Below are positions 4,074 to 13,460 of a DNA stretch of 14,733 bases, in pieces. The position numbers were made by a program, and so were the translations under genes. Numbering within the stretch: the first letter of the stretch is position 1; each line of letters starts with the position of its first letter. Source of the DNA: a virus; UHGV virus genome UHGV-1964037; one strand, 5' to 3'. Under the pieces are notes generated by a model that made no database searches, was not told where the DNA came from, and saw only the letters and a list, made by a program, of their open reading frames with translations.

Positions 4074-4267
4074 GAATCCTCCCGGTCGGGATAATGTTGT
4101 GAGTCAGATGAGGGAACGGGCTGAAGTCCGGAAGTTACAGGACAATGGCAGGAGGAAGACTACAGCCCGCAATACGAAAAAGGCCGCGCTATTGCGCAGA
4201 GTGATTACTGTCGGATATTATTCGCCAGCTGAAATATTACTTCACGTTTTGTTGTTTATTCCTTGCC

Positions 4268-4296: not shown

Positions 4297-4353
4297 GTCC
4301 ATAAGAAAGCCCCTCCGGAGAGGGGCTGGAGAGTGGCGCTATGTGCCATTGCA

Positions 4354-4375
4354 TGGTGCCGGGTGCCTCCCGGTG
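4354..4375. repeat. 22-bp element TGGTGCCGGGTGCCTCCCGGTG, with an exact reverse-complement copy at 14559-14580
   Basis: Exact 22/22 match in inverted orientation about 10.2 kb away. The minus-sense reading CACCGGGAGGCACCCGGCACCA holds three GGCACC hexamers and a CCGGG/CCCGG hairpin. Confidence 0.9.
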
Positions 4376-4644
4376 AGTTCAGTATCAGCACCTGAACCCG
4401 CACAGAAAGGATAAGGGTCGGTGACAAAACACCAGTTGCTGATTGCCCCTCCGCACAGGGGGATTCACCATGCCAGTTTCTTTTAACAAACTCCCCGCAA
4501 ACCAGACAACAGTCAACCGCCTGAATTGTGAGGTATTTAAAAATTTCAACGGGTAACTGATACCCTGCTAATCGCCTGATGCTTTCTTTTTCAGCAACGG
4601 GGAAGCAACAACCACCACACCCACCAGCCGCCCATTTACCACAA

Positions 4645-5055: not shown

Positions 5056-5448
5056 CTAATCATTTTTTACTTTTTTGGGCAGCCAGTCGTCCATCTCCAG
5101 CCTTACACCCAGCATCGACAGACATCCGTCAATAAATCCTTCAGCAATCTGCATCTCAATTCGTATTGCCTTTTCGCTCTTCTTTCTTGTTCTGGCAATC
5201 TGCCTTTTTGATATGCGCAGCAGATAATGAGCTACCAGCAGCGAATACTCGTCCGGTTTTTTCTTCTTCAGGCGCGTAAGGCAGTTTTCGATGATAAGGC
5301 CGTCATCATCGCTGCAGGCCGGGCGAGGTTTAGCGGTGGATGGTAAAAGGCCTTTAAATCCAGCAGCTATCGGAGAATAGTCCACCCCGGTGTTACCACT
5401 TGCCGCCCATGCCCCCCAGCGTTCAAGAACCATCTGAATATCACGCAT
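5056..5448 (-). CDS. Q: late-gene antiterminator Q (Phage_antitermQ family, QuuD-like)
   Basis: ATG at 5446-5448 with GGAG RBS. Product MRDIQMVLERWGAWAASGNTGVDYSPIAAGFKGLLP...RLKKKKPDEYSLLVAHYLL...GVRLEMDDW matches the short E. coli prophage Q family (N-terminal MRDIQMVLERWGAWAA, C-terminal RLEMD, from memory). Positioned upstream of the late/lysis genes. Confidence 0.8.
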   Translation of the reverse strand: MRDIQMVLERWGAWAASGNTGVDYSPIAAGFKGLLPSTAKPRPACSDDDGLIIENCLTRLKKKKPDEYSLLVAHYLLRISKRQIARTRKKSEKAIRIEMQIAEGFIDGCLSMLGVRLEMDDWLPKKVKND

Positions 5449-5465
5449 CAACTTTCTCCACAAAA

Positions 5466-6461
5466 TCAGGACAGCACACCAATCGCCAGTGCGCGATCGA
5501 TAAAACGAAATATCAGCTCCAGTTGGGAACCATACTTCTCTTCAAATGCCACGGTATCCACATGCAGTTCGTCATGGTGTTTTCTGCACAAAGGCAACAC
5601 AAAGAGATCATGCGCTTTTGTCCCCATACCACCCTGGCCGTGACCAATCAGATGATGCGGATCATCAGCTGGCTTTCCACAACATGCACACGGCTGCGTC
5701 TTAACCCAGCGAGTGTACTTTTCATTAACCCAGCGACGACGTTTGGGGCGTAACATAAAAGACTCCGGCGACTCCGGATCCACTTTCAGCGCCAGCACCT
5801 TTTTCGCTTTATCCCGGATAATACTGGTGGCAGTAACCGAAGGTACAAGGTCACTCTCCCGGGTGACAGACGGCAAAACAGGCTTCGGTAATCTCAGGGC
5901 CTTACGGGCTGCACTTTCCGGTAAAGCATCCGCCAGGTCATTACGAACCAGCCACCAGCACAGTTCCGGCATTGTCACAACGTGACTGTCATCAAAACCA
6001 AGATCACGGCGCACAACAGACAACACCCAGCGGGCACAGTTATCCGTTGCCATTGCTTCCAGCCGTTCCGTGAACTGGTCACGGAGAAGATTGTCACAGT
6101 GCCAGCACAGACGGATTGCGCCTGGCGCGTGCCGCATTGTGGTCATGTTCTCGCTGTGCCAGTCGGAATGAGGCCACTGACAGCCCTTTTCACGAAGTAA
6201 CCAGCTCTCAAGGCATTCCACGCCACCAGCACGACGGATCACCGCCTCATGGCGGAACACGGCCCGAACGGCAGGATCATCCGCCAGCGGTTGTGATGAT
6301 GCCGGAACGGCACCACTGGCAAAAGATGAATAACGTTCCGGCTCAGGCTCCAGCAGGACACGCCCCTGCATAAACAGGGGCATCAGCTCTGAACCTGGCC
6401 TGAACAATACGATCCCCATACGCGGGGCGATTTCAGGGGTCAGTAGTGCTCTCACGGTCAC
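5466..6461 (-). CDS. DUF968-like prophage protein with a C-terminal HNH-like Cys/His motif
   Basis: 331-aa ORF, GTG start at 6459-6461, 1 nt after the KilA-N gene stop. C-terminal CACCGKPADDPHHLIGHGQGGMGTKAHDLFVLPLCRKHHDELH resembles an HNH/zinc-finger motif. The usual position for DUF968 (ydfU-like) genes is just upstream of Q. Confidence 0.5.
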   Translation of the reverse strand: MTVRALLTPEIAPRMGIVLFRPGSELMPLFMQGRVLLEPEPERYSSFASGAVPASSQPLADDPAVRAVFRHEAVIRRAGGVECLESWLLREKGCQWPHSDWHSENMTTMRHAPGAIRLCWHCDNLLRDQFTERLEAMATDNCARWVLSVVRRDLGFDDSHVVTMPELCWWLVRNDLADALPESAARKALRLPKPVLPSVTRESDLVPSVTATSIIRDKAKKVLALKVDPESPESFMLRPKRRRWVNEKYTRWVKTQPCACCGKPADDPHHLIGHGQGGMGTKAHDLFVLPLCRKHHDELHVDTVAFEEKYGSQLELIFRFIDRALAIGVLS

Positions 6462-6462
6462 C

Positions 6463-7278
6463 TCAATGAACGGTATCGAGCAGCTTTAACAGCTCAGGGA
6501 ATCGGGATTCGAAGAAATGCGGCTGCGTCTCGCGCGGATTTGCAGGACTGGTGATGTTCTTGCCGAACATGCAGCCTTTCGCTGTCAGCGACCAGAATTT
6601 TTTGATGTTGTTAATCGCGGTACGGCTGTATCGTTCGCGTTGTTCAACGATCCCCAGCTTCGCCATCTGGTGATATGCCTGATTAGCCGTCAGGCGGATA
6701 CCATACTGCTTCAGCAGTGCACTCAGCGACAGCGTAGGGCGGCTTGAACCATCTGGCGCATCAGCAGGTGCATCAATGGCATAGATCGGCATAAGTTCAG
6801 GAAGACCAGCTACCTTTGATAATTTCTGGTATGCACCAAGTTTCGAGGAGTTTGACAGATTTAGAGTCTTTGCTGCTGATTCAAGCAGAATGACCCCGGA
6901 TTTAATTTTGTCGGATGTGGTTTCTTCTGGTGATGAATTATGAAGCGCATCAAAAGTACGTATCACTTTTAAGCTGAATGCCGGGCTGATCCACATTGCA
7001 TATGCATAGACCAGCTCTTTACAGACATACGTCCCACCATTGCGCCCCTGAATGGTGATGACAGGAATACTACGGGAATCTCCCGTAGTTTCTTCTTCCA
7101 ATAATTCCACAAGAGCCTTCGTTTCAGGACGACGCATAAACTCGTGAACTTCCAGCGAACGGGAGGAGCGATTCTCACCAGCGGCAAGAAGAGCAGCTTT
7201 CTGAAGGTCGTTAAGACAGTAGTTAGATTCGAAGTACTGGCGCACAGAAACGCCATCAATTACAAGCAACTGATTCAT
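6463..7278 (-). CDS. KilA-N domain protein (putative antirepressor-like DNA-binding protein)
   Basis: ATG at 7276-7278 with GGAG 6 nt upstream. N-terminal region ...VRQYFESNYCLNDLQKAALL...ITIQGRNGGTYVCKELVYAYAMWISPAFSLKVIRTF fits the KilA-N/APSES pattern (G..GGTW/YV...L...A.W.SP.F). A 160-bp intergenic region upstream carries promoter-like hexamers. Confidence 0.7.
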   Translation of the reverse strand: MNQLLVIDGVSVRQYFESNYCLNDLQKAALLAAGENRSSRSLEVHEFMRRPETKALVELLEEETTGDSRSIPVITIQGRNGGTYVCKELVYAYAMWISPAFSLKVIRTFDALHNSSPEETTSDKIKSGVILLESAAKTLNLSNSSKLGAYQKLSKVAGLPELMPIYAIDAPADAPDGSSRPTLSLSALLKQYGIRLTANQAYHQMAKLGIVEQRERYSRTAINNIKKFWSLTAKGCMFGKNITSPANPRETQPHFFESRFPELLKLLDTVH

Positions 7279-7440
7279 TGGTTTCTCCACAAATTTTTAT
7301 CCACGAGCGGGACTGCACTCCCTTTTCGTTGATGCAGGATGAACTTACTGCGATTTTTAATAGTTATCAAGGATACACTCTTCATAAATACAGTATCTTT
7401 AACGAGGTAATACCCAAATTTAGGGTGTTGCTCAATTCCG

Positions 7441-7836
7441 TTACCGAGTTGCTAATTTGCAACTCGCTTTTTCGTACTTACTGATAGTGATCTCGACCTT
7501 CCCTTCCGGGATAACCGGTCCCCACTCCACCAGCATTCTTTTCACCTGGCTGTCGTCTTCCCACACACCCGCGTGGGTCAGGGCGTCAAACAGCGCCTTG
7601 TTATAGTTGTCCAGATCGCGGATCCGGTTATCCGGAGGAAACAACACGATCTCCACTGAAGCAGGTGCCGACGTTGGTTTCGGCAGACGACGTAACTGCT
7701 CAACTATTGCTGCACACGCCGCGCTCTGGAATTTTCGCCCCGCCGCGCTTATCAGGCTCTTACCAGCAAACGCCCCTTTATTGGGGTGTCGCCAGTACGT
7801 GTTCACGCTGGGCGGAAAAGGCAGTATTAGCTTCAT
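7441..7836 (-). CDS. rusA: Holliday-junction resolvase RusA
   Basis: 131-aa product MKLILPFPPSVNTYWRHPNKG...NRIRDLDNYNKALFDALTHAGVWEDDSQVKRMLVEW carries the RusA signature (PPS.N.YYR...D.DN..KA.FDALT...W.DD.QV). Starts 4 nt after the upstream gene stop. Confidence 0.8.
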   Translation of the reverse strand: MKLILPFPPSVNTYWRHPNKGAFAGKSLISAAGRKFQSAACAAIVEQLRRLPKPTSAPASVEIVLFPPDNRIRDLDNYNKALFDALTHAGVWEDDSQVKRMLVEWGPVIPEGKVEITISKYEKASCKLATR

Positions 7837-7840
7837 ACTT

Positions 7841-8158
7841 TCAGGCCCTCTCATGTAACCAGTGGGCTGCACGCAGCCTGGCGTTTGCCTCACCGGCAAG
7901 CAGGGCGCGGATAATCCCGACCGCCTCGCTGTCGTCGTCCTTCACCGCGGTATGAAGAGTGATACCCCGGGCCACGCCACGCTTTATCGTGATGACACCT
8001 TTTTTCTCCAGTGCGCGAAGATGCTCCACCGCTGCATTCACCGAACGGTATCCCAGCATGGTTGCCACCTCCTGATTGGTTGGCGGGAAGCCACGTTCTT
8101 TCTGATAAGAAATCAGCATATCCAGCACCTGCTGCTGGCATTGAGTTAATGTCGTCAT
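7841..8158 (-). CDS. LexA N-terminal DNA-binding-domain-like protein with no S24 peptidase domain
   Basis: 105-aa product. Residues 3-68 LTQCQQQVLDMLISYQKERGFPPTNQEVATMLGYRSVNAAVEHLRALEKKGVITIKRGVARGITL align closely with the E. coli LexA N-domain [65 protein letters not shown] (from memory). No Ala-Gly/Ser/Lys cleavage module. ATGA overlap with the upstream methyltransferase stop. Confidence 0.7.
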   Translation of the reverse strand: MTTLTQCQQQVLDMLISYQKERGFPPTNQEVATMLGYRSVNAAVEHLRALEKKGVITIKRGVARGITLHTAVKDDDSEAVGIIRALLAGEANARLRAAHWLHERA

Positions 8159-8808
8159 GCCGCCATCTCCCTGACCAGTTTTTCCGCCTGCTGGCGAACC
8201 TGCGCCAGAAATGCCTCACCACATGCCTCAAGTTCATCGCGCCCGATGTAGCTGATTGCCGCTCCCTTCCAGGTCTTGTCGAAAACAGCAATAGCACCAG
8301 CGAAGAAAGCACCTGTTGGCACCTGCTTTTCGTCTTTCGGGATAAACCAGGCTGGCAGTTCAAAACCAATACGCCCGCGAATAAAAGCAATATGATCTGC
8401 ATCTTCCGGCCACCACACTTCGCTGGTGGCCGCTTTGATCAGGAAAACATAGCGCCCGCCTTTATCACGCATGGCACTGGCATGCTTCATGATGTAACGC
8501 ATGCCGGTGATGTATTGTCCCTCATGCTGACTGGCGCGGCTGTACGGGGGATTACCAAAGGCAGCACCTTTAAGCTCCGCAAGACGTTCTGACCAGTCAT
8601 GTGCCAGCGCGTTGTCTTCCGCCGTGTAATACGCGGCACATTTGGCGTTATCACCGTCAGTAAACAGATCCAGAACAAACGGGCCAAACAGGGTGTTAAT
8701 TCCCCAGAAAATGTTGTCCGGCGTGCGCCACTGATCGCCCACTTCCTTCAGTTCATGGGCTGGTTTGTTCCGTAGTTCCACCAGCGCCTGGCAATATTTA
8801 TTACTCAT
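8155..8808 (-). CDS. phage Dam-type DNA N6-adenine methyltransferase
   Basis: 217-aa product with the catalytic NPPY motif (AAFGNPPYS) and a conserved N-terminal WRTPDNIF block typical of the phage Dam family. Start overlaps the upstream stop (TAATG). Confidence 0.7.
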   Translation of the reverse strand: MSNKYCQALVELRNKPAHELKEVGDQWRTPDNIFWGINTLFGPFVLDLFTDGDNAKCAAYYTAEDNALAHDWSERLAELKGAAFGNPPYSRASQHEGQYITGMRYIMKHASAMRDKGGRYVFLIKAATSEVWWPEDADHIAFIRGRIGFELPAWFIPKDEKQVPTGAFFAGAIAVFDKTWKGAAISYIGRDELEACGEAFLAQVRQQAEKLVREMAA

Positions 8809-9296
8809 TAAGCCCCCACGTAATTCCCTGACAGATACCACTCATCACCCGCTACAGCGCGCTTTCTGCTTTTCCGTAAGCACCGCTCACGACGCGCCAG
8901 AAAATTGTTTCGTTCTGGCTGGGAGTGGCTTTCACGGAATGCCGCCATCCACACGGTTGCAGCACGACGGTATAAGCCCCTGGACTCCAGTTCTTCCGCC
9001 TGGCGGGTCAGGCACAAAATCACCCGGGGATCGTTAGTGCCGACATAGAAATTGCGCACAGGTATGGTTTCAAGAACAGGTTGCAGTTTCTCCTCCTGCG
9101 ATATCTCAGCCTGGTGTGGGAAATGTCTGCGTGTTTTCCCTTCACAACAGTGAGCCACACGGCCACTCTGACGTAACTTGCTTGCTGACTGCAGAACGCA
9201 CTGTCGTGAGTAACCAGCAAAAGCATCCGCAATGTCACCTGAAGTACACCCCGGATGGGCTTCAATGAATTTCTGTACATCGTTCATCAGACTCAT
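8808..9296 (-). CDS. PerC-like putative transcriptional regulator, 162 aa, with an N-terminal extension
   Basis: C-terminal half AEELESRGLYRRAATVWMAAFRES...RRERCLRKSRK matches my recollection of the PerC/Pch motif (LE..GLWRRAA..W......R..CLRKSR). ATG at 9294-9296 with GGGGGTG RBS, 2 nt after the upstream stop. Confidence 0.45.
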   Translation of the reverse strand: MSLMNDVQKFIEAHPGCTSGDIADAFAGYSRQCVLQSASKLRQSGRVAHCCEGKTRRHFPHQAEISQEEKLQPVLETIPVRNFYVGTNDPRVILCLTRQAEELESRGLYRRAATVWMAAFRESHSQPERNNFLARRERCLRKSRKRAVAGDEWYLSGNYVGA

Positions 9297-9298
9297 GA

Positions 9299-10282
9299 TC
9301 ACCCCCTGAATCCTGTCGGGATCTGGCTGTAGTCCACGTTGTCGTAACTGGCTTTGAAGTACGGGTCCTCGCGTCTGGCTGCAGATACCGCAGGAACTTC
9401 CCAGGATTCTTCGAAATGACGATCCGGACCAAAGAACGTCGACGCCTGCTTCACGAACTGGGTACAGGTATTTCCAGAGACACGCACCCAGGCGGCATAG
9501 CGTTTCACACCGTCGAGCATGGTTTCAGGTGTCACACCTTCCCTGATTCGGGCTTTCCAGGCTTTAAAAGCGGCGGATTTTGAATTACCACCAGCACGTT
9601 TGGGATATTCCTGCCAGGCCTGTTCAAATTCCGGTGAATATTCCTGTCGGGCAGAACGCGCTGGTGCAGACGCGTCAGCGGATGCGCCAATAGTGTTTTT
9701 AGTCTCCGTTGTAATCTCTGTAGTAATCTCTGTATTTGTATCAACATTCGGCGTATCCCCTGTTCCGTTACGACGTCGGGGGGTGTTCCGTTTTAACGTA
9801 ATAGCTGTATCGCTGATTGCATTATTGCTGTTACTTTCTGGCGAAACAGAAGAAGGTGTGGTGATGGCCGCAATTGCCTGTGGGTTGATCCCGACAAACA
9901 AAATATTGCTACATTTCACCCCATCGAGCATTTCCACCGTGCGTAAATCCAGAGTAATAAACCCGGCATCACGGAGACGCTTCAGCGCATCTGCGGTTTC
10001 CCTTTTCCCGAAACCAAACTGCTCAGCAAACGCCTGGTAGCTTCTTTGCAGTTTGTCGCCCTGAAAACGCTTGCGATATCCCAGCAACGCTCCGGTGTGC
10101 TCATCCCTGACCTCTGTCGGGCGGTACCAGTAAACGATCTCTGAAAGCAGAGCGATAGCCGTCGCATCCGGACGCCCACTGGGTAGTCGAATATATTTCC
10201 ACCAGGTCGCAGGTGTAACATTGCCGGAAATATTAATTTGACCAATAGCCATAACTTCCGGTGTGGGGGCGTAACGGCTCAT
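9299..10282 (-). CDS. putative replication initiation protein (lambda O-like role) with an internal low-complexity linker
   Basis: 327-aa product. N-terminal helical domain (LSEIVYWYRP...LKRLRDAGFITLD), Thr/Ser/Asn-rich linker containing TEITTEITTE, C-terminal domain (EFEQAWQEYPKR...AFKAWKARIREGVTP...). It sits where O sits in lambdoid early operons. The coding sequence contains direct repeats like the O-embedded lambda ori. Family assignment is tentative. Confidence 0.5.
   Translation of the reverse strand: MSRYAPTPEVMAIGQINISGNVTPATWWKYIRLPSGRPDATAIALLSEIVYWYRPTEVRDEHTGALLGYRKRFQGDKLQRSYQAFAEQFGFGKRETADALKRLRDAGFITLDLRTVEMLDGVKCSNILFVGINPQAIAAITTPSSVSPESNSNNAISDTAITLKRNTPRRRNGTGDTPNVDTNTEITTEITTETKNTIGASADASAPARSARQEYSPEFEQAWQEYPKRAGGNSKSAAFKAWKARIREGVTPETMLDGVKRYAAWVRVSGNTCTQFVKQASTFFGPDRHFEESWEVPAVSAARREDPYFKASYDNVDYSQIPTGFRG
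9711..9734. repeat. perfect 12-bp tandem duplication GTAATCTCTGTA x2 inside the O-like gene, with flanking 9-bp direct repeats TGTTCCGTT (9761-9769 and 9784-9792)
   Basis: Read directly from the sequence. The repeats lie in the linker-encoding part of the gene and are followed by an AT-rich stretch (9793-9840). Confidence 0.85.
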
Positions 10283-10578: not shown

Positions 10579-10799
10579 GCCACACCTCCCAGACGCTTAA
10601 ACATTTTTCCGGAGCAAAAGGCTATAAGCGGCATACTGACGCGGTAATTACGGCCCAGCGGTTCACAAATCACCTTCTGACATTCACGGTCAACCAGGCT
10701 AACACGTAGAACATGCCCTGCAGGCGTGGTGTACCACTGACCCGGACGAGGACAACGGAAAGTATGATTGGTAAACCGTTTGAAAATATTCCGGATCAT
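10575..10799 (-). CDS. hypothetical Cys-containing small protein, 74 aa
   Basis: ATG overlaps the Rha-domain gene stop (ATGA). Product MIRNIFKRFTNHTFRCPRPGQWYTTPAGHVLRVSLVDRECQKVICEPLGRNYRVSMPLIAFCSGKMFKRLGGVA has 4 Cys (possible metal-binding). Confidence 0.4.
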   Translation of the reverse strand: MIRNIFKRFTNHTFRCPRPGQWYTTPAGHVLRVSLVDRECQKVICEPLGRNYRVSMPLIAFCSGKMFKRLGGVA

Positions 10800-11944
10800 T
10801 TGCGCCCCCTTACCTCTGAAGGGTTCAGCGACAAATTTATGAGACTGGCCAGTAGCGCCGCGTCGTTGATGCGGTCATACAGACTTACAGCCAGCGGGGA
10901 TTCGGCTTTTGCCAACATGGGATAAAGCTGCTGCAGCCAGACCTTGTGGATTACCGACAGGTGGGAGTAAAGCACGCTGGCGTTATCTGCGGCATCGCTC
11001 AGCGTGGATGGCTTTGAAAGCAGTTTTTCCATCTGGTTAAAGGCATTGATGTATGCCTCTTTGAACTGGGCAGCACGTTTACCCGTGAAACCCATAGCAA
11101 GAAACGCAAAGCCGTCGCGGGTTATTTGATAGCAAGGTAGTTTGCGGCCTGTGCAATCGGTGTAATCACTCACCGAAAAATTGCGGGCAGTGAATGATGC
11201 GGAACATTCAAGCGTGCGGATCTTTTTCAGTACATCGTCATGACGTTTGGAGAAGAAGTTGGCAACAGCCAGGGATGAAGTAACAGCCTGACCATCAACG
11301 ATGGCAATTTCAGGTTGAGTGAGGGTTGGGATCGTAGCCATGATGGCAGCCTCCGTATGCAATGGATAACTTCCACCACCGGAAACGCCAATTTCGCTGG
11401 TGGTGAACTGAGCAGGGTTGGCGTAACCGGCGCATACGGAAACCGGCGCACCTTTCGGTGCCCCCACCCAGCCCACCATAATTTGGGTATAGCTGAGTTG
11501 TAGCAACAAAAAAGACGCTAACGCGCCAATTGTCGCCGTATGCAATTCCAGGACGCCAATCCCGACACCCGCTTTATAAGGTGCCTGAACAGTGTAACGT
11601 CCCGGAATGGCAGAATCAATGTGCTGGTGGTCCTTCACACTCAACAAAATCACGCCTGAATTTCCACAAAGGACTAAAGCACTCATGCTGGTAGTCTTTG
11701 CGAAGATAGATAACGCGCTGTGTTTCTGGCTCCCAACGAATAACATGAACATAAAGTCCTCTTCCGTCACGAAACCAGCGGTTAAGTTCCTGCACAACTC
11801 GCCCCCCACAGTCAGGTAAAGTTCTCTGTGGTTACTTACAGCCAGGTGATTTGGTAATCTGCATTCATGCCGTAACAACAGGTGTTCAGCGACGCTGACC
11901 ACCAGCTGTTGCGACAAACGGTTATTTGCCGTTAAACTATTCAT
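10796..11944 (-). CDS. Rha-domain phage regulatory protein with about 200-aa in-frame N-terminal extension of unknown function
   Basis: C-terminal 181 aa (from ATG 11339-11341, preceded by GGAGG) MATIPTLTQPEIAIVDGQAVTSSLAVANFFSKRHDDVLKKIRTLE...ITRDGFAFLAMGFTGKRAAQFKEAYINAFNQME is a clear Rha (Phage_pRha) domain. The frame stays open for a further 201 codons upstream to an ATG at 11942-11944 that overlaps the CII-like stop (ATGA). A 600-nt open frame by chance is unlikely, so the long form is annotated; the true start is uncertain. Confidence 0.5.
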   Translation of the reverse strand: MNSLTANNRLSQQLVVSVAEHLLLRHECRLPNHLAVSNHRELYLTVGGELCRNLTAGFVTEEDFMFMLFVGSQKHSALSIFAKTTSMSALVLCGNSGVILLSVKDHQHIDSAIPGRYTVQAPYKAGVGIGVLELHTATIGALASFLLLQLSYTQIMVGWVGAPKGAPVSVCAGYANPAQFTTSEIGVSGGGSYPLHTEAAIMATIPTLTQPEIAIVDGQAVTSSLAVANFFSKRHDDVLKKIRTLECSASFTARNFSVSDYTDCTGRKLPCYQITRDGFAFLAMGFTGKRAAQFKEAYINAFNQMEKLLSKPSTLSDAADNASVLYSHLSVIHKVWLQQLYPMLAKAESPLAVSLYDRINDAALLASLINLSLNPSEVRGRK

Positions 11945-12833: not shown

Positions 12834-13460
12834 ATGGAAACGGTTGGTCAGCGTATAAAAGCTCTGAGAAGAGTTACCGGAACGTCCCAGAAAGAATTGG
12901 GTAAATTTTGTGGAGTAAGCGACGTTGCTGTGGGGTACTGGGAGAAAGACATCAATACCCCTGGTGGGGAGGCACTTTCGAAATTAGCGAAGTTCTTCAA
13001 TACGTCAATAGATTACATTCTTTATGGTGCTGAGTTTGAAGGCAAACTCGTCACAAACATGCGCAGAGTTCCTGTAATATCGTGGGTTCAGGCTGGGCAG
13101 TTTACTGAGTGCAGGGCAGCAGAAGTGTTTAGTGAAGTGGACAAGTGGGTAGATACATCATTAAAGATTGGTGATAACTCATTTGCATTAGAGGTTAAAG
13201 GTGACTCCATGACTAACCCTAATGGCCTCCCAACAATACCAGAAGGCGCAACAGTGATTGTAGATCCAGATGCAGAACCTCGTCATGGAAAAATAGTCAT
13301 CGCTCGACTTGATGGAACAAACGAAGCTACAGTAAAAAAATTAGTCATCGATGGCCCTCAAAAGTTTTTAGTGCCATTAAATCCTCGGTATCCCAACATC
13401 CCTATCAATGGTAATTGCCTTATCATTGGTGTAGTCAAAGGAGTTCAATACGAACTCTAA
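12834..13460 (+). CDS. cI: CI-type prophage repressor (N-terminal HTH plus C-terminal S24 LexA-like autopeptidase domain)
   Basis: 208-aa product. N-terminal HTH (QKELGKFCGVSDVAVGYWEKDINTP), Ala-Gly cleavage site (WVQAGQF), catalytic Ser in GDSM and a Lys-Lys pair (TVKKLV), as in lambda CI/LexA. Confidence 0.85.
   Translation: METVGQRIKALRRVTGTSQKELGKFCGVSDVAVGYWEKDINTPGGEALSKLAKFFNTSIDYILYGAEFEGKLVTNMRRVPVISWVQAGQFTECRAAEVFSEVDKWVDTSLKIGDNSFALEVKGDSMTNPNGLPTIPEGATVIVDPDAEPRHGKIVIARLDGTNEATVKKLVIDGPQKFLVPLNPRYPNIPINGNCLIIGVVKGVQYEL

What the first reader, a model, noticed from the sequence alone, without database searches (positions are those of the whole stretch)
7841..8158. Prophage-encoded LexA DNA-binding domain without the autocleavage domain
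The 105-aa product aligns along its length with the LexA N-terminal winged-HTH domain, including the recognition helix region (SVNAAVEHLRAL against LexA [12 protein letters not shown]), but lacks the S24 peptidase module. A non-cleavable LexA-like binder could occupy SOS boxes or phage operators and act as an uninducible repressor or a LexA competitor. It sits in the early operon between the methyltransferase and RusA.
Basis: partly seen in the sequence, partly recalled or inferred. Interest (0 to 1): 0.6.

Follow-up and report, generated by a model that had tools for sequence, protein, structure and literature searches.

The report
Phage LexA-like DNA-binding protein, no protease
This is a real, very common prophage gene, already annotated in about 40% of complete E. 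coli genomes, that encodes only the DNA-binding half of the SOS repressor LexA plus a short helical tail, and whose function has never been tested.

Summary

Residues 71-105 are not LexA-like. They form a family-specific two-helix hairpin.

The gene sits in the delayed-early nin region of a lambdoid prophage. Its start overlaps the dam stop codon, and rusA begins 4 nt after its own stop.

It is not new. PGAP names it "LexA family transcriptional regulator", it occurs in 2233 of 5426 complete E. coli genomes, and it is PHROG 362 (SfV orf42, mEp460, Stx2 phages). I found no functional study.

Four of five LexA base-contact residues are kept. Glu44 is never kept in 102 unique family sequences.

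Relatives in Klebsiella, Enterobacter and Cedecea prophages lie in operons headed by a canonical SOS box. The window has no strong SOS box.

Best guess, at 0.4 confidence: a RecA-insensitive stand-in for LexA, made once host LexA is being destroyed. The main rivals are a phage-specific regulator like GIL01 gp6, or an accessory to RusA. Interest is modest.

The parts
7841..8158 (-). Whole ORF, 105 aa plus stop: LexA-NTD-only protein (PHROG 362; PGAP name 'LexA family transcriptional regulator')
7949..8158 (-). Residues 1-70: LexA-type winged helix-turn-helix (helices 6-22, 28-35, 40-52; strands 56-59 and 65-68)
8003..8044 (-). Recognition-helix region S39-V-N41-A42-A-V44-E45-H-L-R-A-L-E-K. Four of the five LexA base-contact residues are kept; Glu44 is Val
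7844..7948 (-). Residues 71-105: low-confidence linker (71-75) plus a two-helix hairpin (75-88, 93-104). It is family-specific, absent from LexA, and a probable dimerisation element (inferred)
   Evidence: pLDDT about 90 in the helices; conserved hydrophobic pattern in relatives of 40-52% identity; no Pfam match
7846..7848 (-). G run (GGG on the coding strand) where all compared phages have GGGG. The 1-nt deletion changes the C-terminus from ERGLKV* to ERA* and removes the ATGA overlap with rusA
   Evidence: the allele recurs in public assemblies
8155..8158 (-). ATGA: the stop codon of dam overlaps the start codon of the LexA-like gene, suggesting translational coupling
   Evidence: read directly from the sequence; same layout in SfV, mEp460 and Stx2a_1447
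8155..8808 (-). Upstream gene: phage Dam-type N6-adenine methyltransferase, probable 217-aa form
   Evidence: PF05869, E=6.4e-45; gene calls
7441..7836 (-). Downstream gene: RusA Holliday-junction resolvase, the near-constant downstream neighbour of the family
   Evidence: PF05866; synteny count

Best explanation
The ORF is a functional, conserved nin-region gene of lambdoid prophages. It encodes a stand-alone LexA-type winged-HTH joined by a flexible linker to a short two-helix hairpin.

Shown:
- The fold, the absence of the S24 protease, and the conservation of the family.
- The operon position.

Inferred:
- The helical hairpin replaces the LexA C-terminal domain as the dimerisation element.
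- The protein binds palindromes built from CTGT-like half-sites.
- Because it has no catalytic domain, it is insensitive to RecA*.
- In this phage it is made only from the delayed-early pR transcript, coupled to dam upstream and followed by rusA. That is after induction or infection, when host LexA is being cleaved.
- Its most likely job is to act as a non-cleavable LexA surrogate. It would re-occupy LexA-type operators on the host chromosome, on co-resident prophages or on the phage itself, and so damp or time SOS-controlled genes during lytic growth.
For: - Domain and fold are LexA N-terminal domain.
- The signature S-x-N-A-A-x-E-H-L of beta/gamma-proteobacterial LexA is kept. S39 and N41 are invariant and A42 is 95% conserved in 102 unique family sequences. 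Those are the DNA-contacting residues named in PMC3091678 and PMC13416735.
- No S24 domain.
- The tail is predicted as two amphipathic helices with pLDDT about 90, and its pattern is conserved down to 40% identity.
- No promoter-like site lies near the gene, and its start overlaps the dam stop. Expression therefore follows the early lytic transcript.
- In 29 of 35 loci of the Enterobacter, Cedecea and Klebsiella clades, the family gene lies 440-1000 nt downstream of a terminator, a promoter and a canonical SOS box on the same strand (PWM 17.6-30.2, up to the perfect TACTGTATATATATACAGTA), together with a DinI homologue. The family is therefore repeatedly wired into the SOS circuit.
- Phages that carry the gene also carry strong SOS boxes: mEp460 dinI, and the late-region methylase of SfV and mEp460.
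- Precedent for phages manipulating LexA operators: GIL01 gp7 and gp6 (PMC6182141, PMC9700832).
Against: - There are no binding data.
- Glu44 is never kept (A, V, F or T in 102 of 102). Glu45 is replaced in 32% of family members, including clades whose own operon carries canonical SOS boxes (E45L, E45I). Those boxes are therefore probably for host LexA, and family specificity has drifted.
- The window has no strong SOS box. The best is a half-site-quality match scoring 15.3 at 7376-7395. CTGT-N8-ACAG matches with up to one mismatch are only marginally enriched: 11 against 5.75 expected, with 6 of 200 shuffles reaching 11.
- Dimerisation through the tail is untested.
- The SOS-box PWM was built from 21 E. 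coli boxes recalled from memory.
- The 80 loci of the mEp390-type clade carry no SOS box within 2.5 kb.
Confidence: 0.4

Rival explanations
1. A phage-specific transcription factor, either activator or repressor. It would have its own operator, derived from but no longer equal to the SOS box, and would control a phage promoter. This is how the truncated LexA homologue gp6 of GIL01 activates the late promoter P3.
For: - gp6 is a characterised LexA-NTD-only phage protein that binds GaCACAnnTGTGaC and activates transcription.
- Base-contact positions 44 and 45 vary between otherwise close family members (AE, VE, VA, AL). This is the pattern expected for diversifying operator specificity.
- Glu44 is lost throughout the family, whereas most LexA-length relatives keep E-[E/D] at 44-45.
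Against: - No candidate operator was found. The inverted-repeat scan of the window's intergenic regions was unremarkable. Palindromes associated with the VA versus xE helix variants are explained by linked downstream modules.
- Late transcription in lambdoid phages is already handled by Q, which is present at 5056..5463.
- gp6 shows no BLASTP similarity to this protein, so any likeness is convergent.
Confidence: 0.3
2. A DNA-binding accessory of the recombination and nuclease genes that follow it (RusA, DUF968/HNH). It would target or shape DNA for them rather than regulate transcription. The nearest analogy is lambda NinH, a Fis mimic encoded in the nin region.
For: - RusA starts within 25 nt downstream in 104 of 137 family loci and within 1 kb in 8 more.
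- The stop/start overlap with rusA is kept even in mEp390, at 46% identity.
- The pairing spans two divergent RusA types, while the flanking genes vary.
- NinH shows that nin regions encode copies of host DNA-binding domains that bind and bend DNA (PMC7166090).
Against: - A whole Klebsiella-type clade (23 loci) lacks RusA and keeps the gene next to a 67-aa ORF and DUF968.
- The window allele has lost the overlap with rusA yet persists in many samples.
- Gene order in nin regions is generally conserved without functional coupling.
- There is no evidence of a protein-protein contact.
Confidence: 0.15
3. An uninducible maintenance repressor, or an immunity factor expressed in the lysogen.
For: Database names such as 'transcriptional repressor' (PHROG 362). 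The SfV depositors predicted a promoter upstream of dam.
Against: - The phage has its own cI with an S24 domain, and cro.
- No promoter-like site lies within 6400-9400 on the coding strand near the gene.
- The gene is embedded between early lytic genes with overlapping stops and starts.
Confidence: 0.05
4. A decaying remnant of a captured host lexA gene with no present function.
For: The region aligned with the LexA hinge still reads LLAGE against LexA VAAGE. This is consistent with an origin from a lexA 5' half.
Against: - Intact ORFs occur in 2233 E. coli genomes and 61 phage records, including plaque-forming phages.
- Family members at 40-50% identity keep length, tail pattern and position.
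- DNA-contact residues S39 and N41 are invariant.
Confidence: 0.03

Closest known systems
E. coli LexA repressor, N-terminal domain (PDB 1lea/1leb, 3jso)
   Same: Same fold, with 49-51% identity over about 68 residues. Same recognition-helix signature S-x-N-A-A-x-E-H-L. The wing motif R-G-I is conserved.
   Different: - No S24 protease/dimerisation domain and no Ser119/Lys156.
- Glu44 is Val.
- The hinge and cleavage loop are replaced by a two-helix hairpin.
- It is encoded in a phage early operon, not in an autoregulated host gene.
- It scores below the TIGR00498 cutoff.
PHROG 362 / PGAP 'LexA family transcriptional regulator' (SfV Orf42, mEp460 gp46, SfII, SfIV, cdtI and Stx2a/Stx2c phage homologues)
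   Same: This is the family the ORF belongs to. It shares 94-100% identity with these genes, has the same neighbours (PerC-like, Dam, RusA, KilA-N, DUF968, Q), and matches PHROG 362 over its full length at E=1.7e-57.
   Different: Only the last residues differ (ERA* against ERGLKV*), because of a 1-nt deletion. No member has been studied functionally in the literature I could search.
GIL01 gp6 (Bacillus thuringiensis tectivirus), a truncated LexA homologue that activates the late promoter P3
   Same: It is phage-encoded and consists only of a LexA N-terminal domain. It is an early gene and acts on DNA beside host-LexA-controlled promoters (PMC6182141).
   Different: - 66 aa with no helical tail.
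- No BLASTP similarity to the window protein, so it is an independent truncation of a Firmicute LexA.
- Different recognition residues (Lys38).
- Shown to be an activator with its own palindrome.
Lambda NinH (a Fis mimic in the nin region)
   Same: A small nin-region protein that copies the DNA-binding part of a host global regulator and works as a homodimer (PMC7166090).
   Different: A different fold (Fis-type HTH), a different host protein mimicked, and no link to the SOS system.
Gifsy-type LexA-controlled dinI-antirepressor-irsA operon (Lemire et al. 2011)
   Same: In Klebsiella, Enterobacter and Cedecea relatives the family gene sits in the same layout: terminator, promoter, SOS box, (dinI), a small protein, and then the gene in the third place, ahead of nin-type nucleases and Q.
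   Different: - The Gifsy-2 gene in that place (STM1020, the irsA homologue) is DUF1367, not LexA-like.
- The small protein (phrog_1813) is not similar to GftA by BLASTP.
- The window's own copy is not in such an operon.

Membership tests
Bona fide LexA repressor (TIGR00498 equivalog) | N-terminal LexA_DNA_bind winged HTH | tested here: met
Bona fide LexA repressor (TIGR00498 equivalog) | C-terminal Peptidase_S24 domain with the Ser/Lys dyad, used for autocleavage and dimerisation | tested here: not met
   The protein ends at residue 105. There is no PF00717 hit. TIGR00498 scores 70.8 bits against a 110.95 cutoff, and only profile positions 1-91 of 203 are matched.
Bona fide LexA repressor (TIGR00498 equivalog) | Ala-Gly cleavage site in an extended loop | tested here: not met
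   A88-G89 aligns with LexA A84-G85 in this subfamily. However, the pair is not conserved in the family: position 88 is S, A, D or T and position 89 is G, D, C or N. It also lies at the turn of a predicted helical hairpin.
Bona fide LexA repressor (TIGR00498 equivalog) | Binds CTGT-N8-ACAG SOS boxes | not testable with these tools
   Four of five contact residues are kept and E44 is V. Needs EMSA or ChIP.
PHROG 362 / phage stand-alone LexA-NTD proteins (SfV Orf42 family) | Full-length match to the family profile, about 105-110 aa | tested here: met
   phrog_362 E=1.7e-57, residues 1-104 on profile positions 1-102 of 106; 94-100% identity to SfV, mEp460 and Stx2 phage genes
PHROG 362 / phage stand-alone LexA-NTD proteins (SfV Orf42 family) | C-terminal helical extension with the conserved pattern E-A-x-x-h-h-R-x-L-h ... 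A-R-x-R-A-x-x-x-L | tested here: met
   Alignments with relatives of 40-52% identity; AlphaFold2 helices 75-88 and 93-104
PHROG 362 / phage stand-alone LexA-NTD proteins (SfV Orf42 family) | nin-region position immediately upstream of rusA, ahead of DUF968 and Q | tested here: met
   Window gene order. RusA lies within 25 nt in 104 of 137 loci. In the window the gap is 4 nt instead of the usual overlap.
GIL01 gp6-type LexA-derived activators | Sequence relationship to gp6 and its Lys38 recognition residue | tested here: not met
   BLASTP finds no alignment. The gp6 sequence has a different recognition helix and no tail.
GIL01 gp6-type LexA-derived activators | Activates a late promoter from a site overlapping the -35 element | not testable with these tools
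   No candidate site was found in the window.
SOS-box-controlled prophage operon (Gifsy dinI-antirepressor type) | Canonical LexA box at a promoter upstream of the gene, on the same strand | tested here: not met
   Not met for the window copy: there is no box scoring 16 or more anywhere in the window. It is met in 29 of 35 loci of the Enterobacter, Cedecea and Klebsiella clades.

The most novel reading that the evidence does not exclude
The protein is a phage-made, RecA-proof replacement for LexA. It would switch the SOS regulon back off after induction. It would silence host SOS functions, and also the LexA-controlled antirepressors, bacteriocins and morons of rival prophages in the same cell, giving its own phage priority. 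If so, about 40% of complete E. coli genomes would carry an unrecognised modulator of the SOS response, and hence of mutagenesis, persistence and Stx-phage induction.
Probability: 0.25. Interest if true: 0.65.

Novelty: already known. Interest (0 to 1): 0.3.

Why it matters
The gene family is extremely common. It is found in 2233 of 5426 complete E. coli genomes, with up to 4 copies per genome. It is also present in Stx2a and Stx2c phages and in the Shigella serotype-converting phages.

Its product looks built to sit on LexA-type operators without responding to RecA. If it does rebind SOS boxes, it would change several things:
- how long and how strongly the SOS response runs in lysogens treated with DNA-damaging antibiotics;
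- which prophage wins in polylysogens;
- possibly how much Shiga toxin phage is released.

If it instead has its own operator, or serves RusA, it is an ordinary uncharacterised nin gene. Either way the question can be answered with a few standard experiments.

Tried and rejected
1. **Retained LexA cleavage site, with the protein cleaved in trans or exposing a ClpX degron.** Rejected. A88-G89 is not conserved across the family, and it lies at a helix-turn in both models.

2. **Orthology with GIL01 gp6.** Rejected. There is no BLASTP alignment.

3. **The SOS-like site 7376-7395 between rusA and the KilA-N gene as a conserved target.** Rejected. It is half-site quality (CTCT...ACAG, PWM 15.3). 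The 150-nt spacer exists only in the SfIV/PhiR49-type module; other carriers have about 20 nt there.

4. **My guess that Salmonella irsA is this family.** Rejected. The Gifsy-2 gene in that position is DUF1367.

5. **Linking recognition-helix variants (VA versus xE at positions 44-45) to co-varying palindromes in 79 loci.** The associated palindromes cluster about 1 kb downstream in a linked module, so the test is confounded by linkage.

6. **Searching collections with a family alignment.** The single-protein scan of species genomes gave only 8 loci.

7. **Pfam search of the tail alone and PADLOC on the protein.** Nothing meaningful.

8. **Literature.** Six searches found only annotation-level mentions, such as pham 237 in Stx phages (PMC8136144). 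The LexA-DNA structure paper was not held.

9. **Co-occurrence with the SOS-boxed late methylase.** 28 of 32 phage records agree. This is not treated as functional evidence, because the two genes lie about 4 kb apart in related phages and the window lacks the methylase.

Full report
**Observation**

The minus-strand ORF 7841..8158 (ATG start, 105 aa) exists as described.
- Its product matches Pfam LexA_DNA_bind over the whole 65-position profile (E=2.7e-19, 69.1 bits, cutoff 23.7).
- It matches the solved E. coli LexA DNA-binding domain (1lea, E=5.7e-16).
- There is no Peptidase_S24 match. The lexA equivalog model TIGR00498 scores 70.8 bits against a cutoff of 110.95, and only profile positions 1-91 of 203 are matched.
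- Two AlphaFold2 runs, one on a close alignment and one on a diverse alignment, agree (pLDDT 78.6 and 82.9). They give helices 6-22, 28-35 and 40-52 and a two-strand wing at 56-68, then a low-confidence linker at 71-75, then two helices at 75-88 and 93-104 with pLDDT about 90.

So the protein is a LexA N-terminal domain plus a 35-residue tail that LexA does not have. It does not align with LexA along its whole length.

**Residue-level anatomy**

The literature held here names Ser39, Asn41, Ala42, Glu44 and Glu45 as the DNA-contacting residues of E. coli LexA (PMC3091678 and PMC13416735).
- The window protein keeps S39, N41, A42 and E45, and has Val at position 44.
- In 102 unique family sequences from 137 loci, S39 and N41 are invariant and A42 is 95% conserved. 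Position 44 is A, V, F or T and never E. Position 45 is E in 68% and A, L, D, S, I or T in the rest.
- Most LexA-length relatives from the same search keep E-[E/D] at 44-45.
- HMMER extends the alignment to LexA residue 86, so that LLAGE pairs with the LexA cleavage region VAAGE. This Ala-Gly is not conserved in relatives of 40-52% identity, and it falls at the turn between the two predicted tail helices. I therefore reject the idea of a retained cleavage site.
- The tail matches no Pfam family. It keeps a hydrophobic pattern across the family (I82/I83, L86, L87, A97, L101). That fits an amphipathic hairpin that could pair into a four-helix bundle. Dimerisation is inferred, not shown.

**Context in the window**

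The window is the immunity, replication, nin and lysis part of a lambdoid prophage, read on the minus strand.
- The minus-strand order is: cro (PF14549), a cII-like gene, an sRNA/antirepressor module, an unassigned 327-aa ORF at the position where related phages annotate a replication protein (no Pfam match; SfV orf39), a PerC-like gene, Dam (PF05869), the LexA-like gene, RusA (PF05866), a KilA-N protein, DUF968/HNH, Q (PF06530), DUF1737, a sialate-esterase-like protein, holin and lysozyme.
- A cI with HTH_3 plus Peptidase_S24 lies on the plus strand at 12834..13460.
- The LexA-like start codon overlaps the dam stop codon (ATGA at 8155-8158).
- No promoter-like site lies near the gene.
- In SfV, mEp460, Stx2a_1447 and even mEp390 (46% identity), the stop codon overlaps the rusA start. 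The window copy has GGG where the others have GGGG. It therefore ends ERA* rather than ERGLKV*, and rusA starts 4 nt later.
- That exact 105-aa allele, with the same neighbours, is found in many independent assemblies (49 index blocks).

**Distribution**
- The DNA is present at 90% identity or more in 2233 of 5426 complete E. coli genomes, with up to 4 copies each. PGAP annotates it as "LexA family transcriptional regulator".
- It is in 61 phage records: SfV orf42, SfII, SfIV, mEp460, cdtI, Ayreon, Stx2a, Stx2c and Stx2k phages at 94-100% identity, and mEp390 and Klebsiella phages at 40-66%.
- It is PHROG 362, "transcriptional repressor" (E=1.7e-57).
- A comparative paper on Stx phages lists a pfam01726 "LexA family transcriptional regulator" pham without any functional work (PMC8136144).
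- Six literature searches found no experimental study of this family. The library does not hold most subscription journals.

**Synteny of relatives**
- Family members of 40-52% identity from Enterobacter, Cedecea, Klebsiella and metagenomes occupy the same place. They sit just upstream of rusA and ahead of DUF968 and Q.
- Over 137 family loci, RusA starts within 25 nt downstream in 104, within 26-1000 nt in 8, and is absent in 23. Two further loci had no room to tell.
- The RusA-less loci are one Klebsiella-type clade in which the gene is followed by a 67-aa ORF (phrog_1212) and DUF968.
- Two divergent RusA types are involved.
- The upstream neighbour varies: Dam, C5-methylases, a replication protein, or a small ORF.

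**Link to the SOS circuit**

I built a position weight matrix from 21 E. coli SOS boxes recalled from memory. This rests on my own knowledge, and the scores are indicative only.
- The window has no strong box. The best match is 7376-7395, CACTCTTCATAAATACAGTA, score 15.3. One half is good and the other is CTCT. It lies in a 150-nt rusA/KilA-N spacer that only SfIV/PhiR49-type phages have.
- The plain pattern CTGT-N8-ACAG, allowing one mismatch, gives 11 matches against 5.75 expected.
- In 29 of 35 loci of the Enterobacter, Cedecea and Klebsiella clades, a canonical box (17.6-30.2, including the perfect TACTGTATATATATACAGTA) lies 440-1000 nt upstream on the same strand. It follows a terminator-like hairpin and -35/-10 elements (L002: TTGCAA-17-AATAAT ending at the box). 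It heads the series [DinI homologue, phrog_189], phrog_1813, LexA-like gene.
- The sequence around the boxes differs between loci while the boxes stay canonical.
- This is the layout Lemire et al. described for the LexA-controlled dinI-antirepressor-irsA operon of the Gifsy prophages (PMC3121763). I checked and rejected the guess that irsA is this family, because the Gifsy-2 gene in that place is DUF1367.
- None of the 80 mEp390-type loci carries such a box.
- Some of the box-bearing clades have Leu or Ile at position 45. Those boxes are therefore most simply read as host-LexA operators, not proof that the LexA-like protein binds them.

**Mechanism**

What is shown:
- a conserved, intact, RecA-insensitive LexA-type DNA-binding domain with a private helical tail;
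- a gene placed for co-transcription, and probably translational coupling, with early lytic genes;
- relatives placed directly under SOS boxes.

In both arrangements the protein appears only when host LexA is being removed.

My best reading, at 0.4 confidence, is a non-cleavable LexA surrogate. It would dimerise through its tail and re-occupy CTGT-type operators on the host, on co-resident prophages or on phage morons. Carriers do hold strong boxes, for example at mEp460 dinI and at the late methylase of SfV and mEp460.

Precedents are GIL01 gp7, which strengthens LexA binding and holds back a co-resident prophage (PMC9700832), and gp6, a truncated LexA homologue acting at a LexA-controlled promoter (PMC6182141).

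Rivals:
- A private-operator regulator of the gp6 type (0.3). It is favoured by the systematic loss of Glu44 and the variability of position 45.
- An accessory to RusA/DUF968 in the manner of lambda NinH, a Fis mimic encoded in the nin region (PMC7166090) (0.15). It is favoured by the tight rusA adjacency and weakened by the RusA-less clade.
- A lysogenic maintenance repressor (0.05).
- A dead remnant (0.03).

**Comparison and novelty**

The ORF fails membership of bona fide LexA, having no S24 domain and no conserved cleavage site. It is a full member of the already catalogued phage family PHROG 362 (SfV Orf42). It resembles gp6 in concept only, since there is no detectable pairwise similarity, which points to an independent truncation.

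The object is already known at the annotation level. What remains open is its function.

Interest is modest, at 0.3. A specialist would not be surprised by the gene. Its frequency in E. coli and Stx phages, together with the repeated wiring of the family into SOS-controlled operons, make a cheap experimental test worthwhile.

Noticed in passing
window 11396-11483 (-) and 11508-11584 (-): Rfam finds a C4 antisense RNA (80.7 bits) and an isrK Hfq-binding sRNA (58.9 bits) just upstream of the Rha-family antirepressor coding region. The 382-aa ORF 10796..11944 is therefore largely spurious in its N-terminal part. Its Pfam Phage_ASH hit (residues 117-212) lies over these RNA genes.
   Followed up: partly
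window 4297-4502 (-): A full-length match to the sRNA family STnc100 (143 bits) lies downstream of Q, in the region before the DUF1737 and esterase genes.
   Followed up: no
window 7376-7395: The best SOS-box-like site of the window (CACTCTTCATAAATACAGTA, PWM 15.3) has one consensus half and one CTCT half. It lies in the 150-nt spacer between rusA and the KilA-N gene. The spacer is specific to SfIV/PhiR49-type phages.
   Followed up: yes
L015 (SfV) 34170-34189; L016 (mEp460) 41021-41040; L018, L019, L020: A strong SOS box (TACTGTAAAAATAAACAGTG, PWM 22.3) overlaps codons 3-9 of the late-region DNA adenine methylase. CTGT-N8-[A/C]CAG is kept in Klebsiella, Citrobacter and Providencia phage homologues despite 72-86% DNA identity. 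Of the 32 phage records with this methylase, 28 also carry the LexA-like gene. The window lacks the methylase.
   Followed up: partly
L016 (mEp460) 31970-31989; L004 (Shigella flexneri prophage) 4103-4122: Near-consensus SOS boxes (PWM 25.8 and 27.0) lie inside the coding sequence of the cI-like S24 repressor gene. mEp460 also has tandem boxes upstream of its dinI homologue, at 23255 and 23283.
   Followed up: no
L002 5531-5579; L024 3476-3580; L105-L131: Prophages of Enterobacter, Cedecea and Klebsiella carry the series terminator, promoter, canonical SOS box, [DinI], phrog_1813 (75-100 aa, unknown function), LexA-like, phrog_1212 (67 aa), then RusA and/or DUF968 and Q. This parallels the Gifsy dinI-antirepressor operon. 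phrog_1813 sits where the antirepressor would be, but shows no BLASTP similarity to GftA.
   Followed up: partly
proteins P0130, P0131, P0149, P0151, P0152, P0186, P0212: Several representative-library proteins of 140-350 aa match the query in two separate stretches. These appear to be tandem LexA_DNA_bind domains in one chain. Their recognition helix reads S-P-N-G-V-M/N-C-H-L.
   Followed up: no
L002 6608-6979; L024 4360-4737: The RusA genes paired with the LexA-like gene fall into two very different sequence types: MKLxLPFPPSVNTYWR... and ...ITPxGKPRMTRADxWKKRP....
   Followed up: no
window 11616-11795 (-): A 59-aa ORF lies in another frame inside the spurious 382-aa ORF. It looks like the DUF4222 gene found after cII in related loci. 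An exact CTGT-N8-ACAG (11826-11841) lies about 30 nt upstream of it but scores only 7.6 on the PWM.
   Followed up: partly
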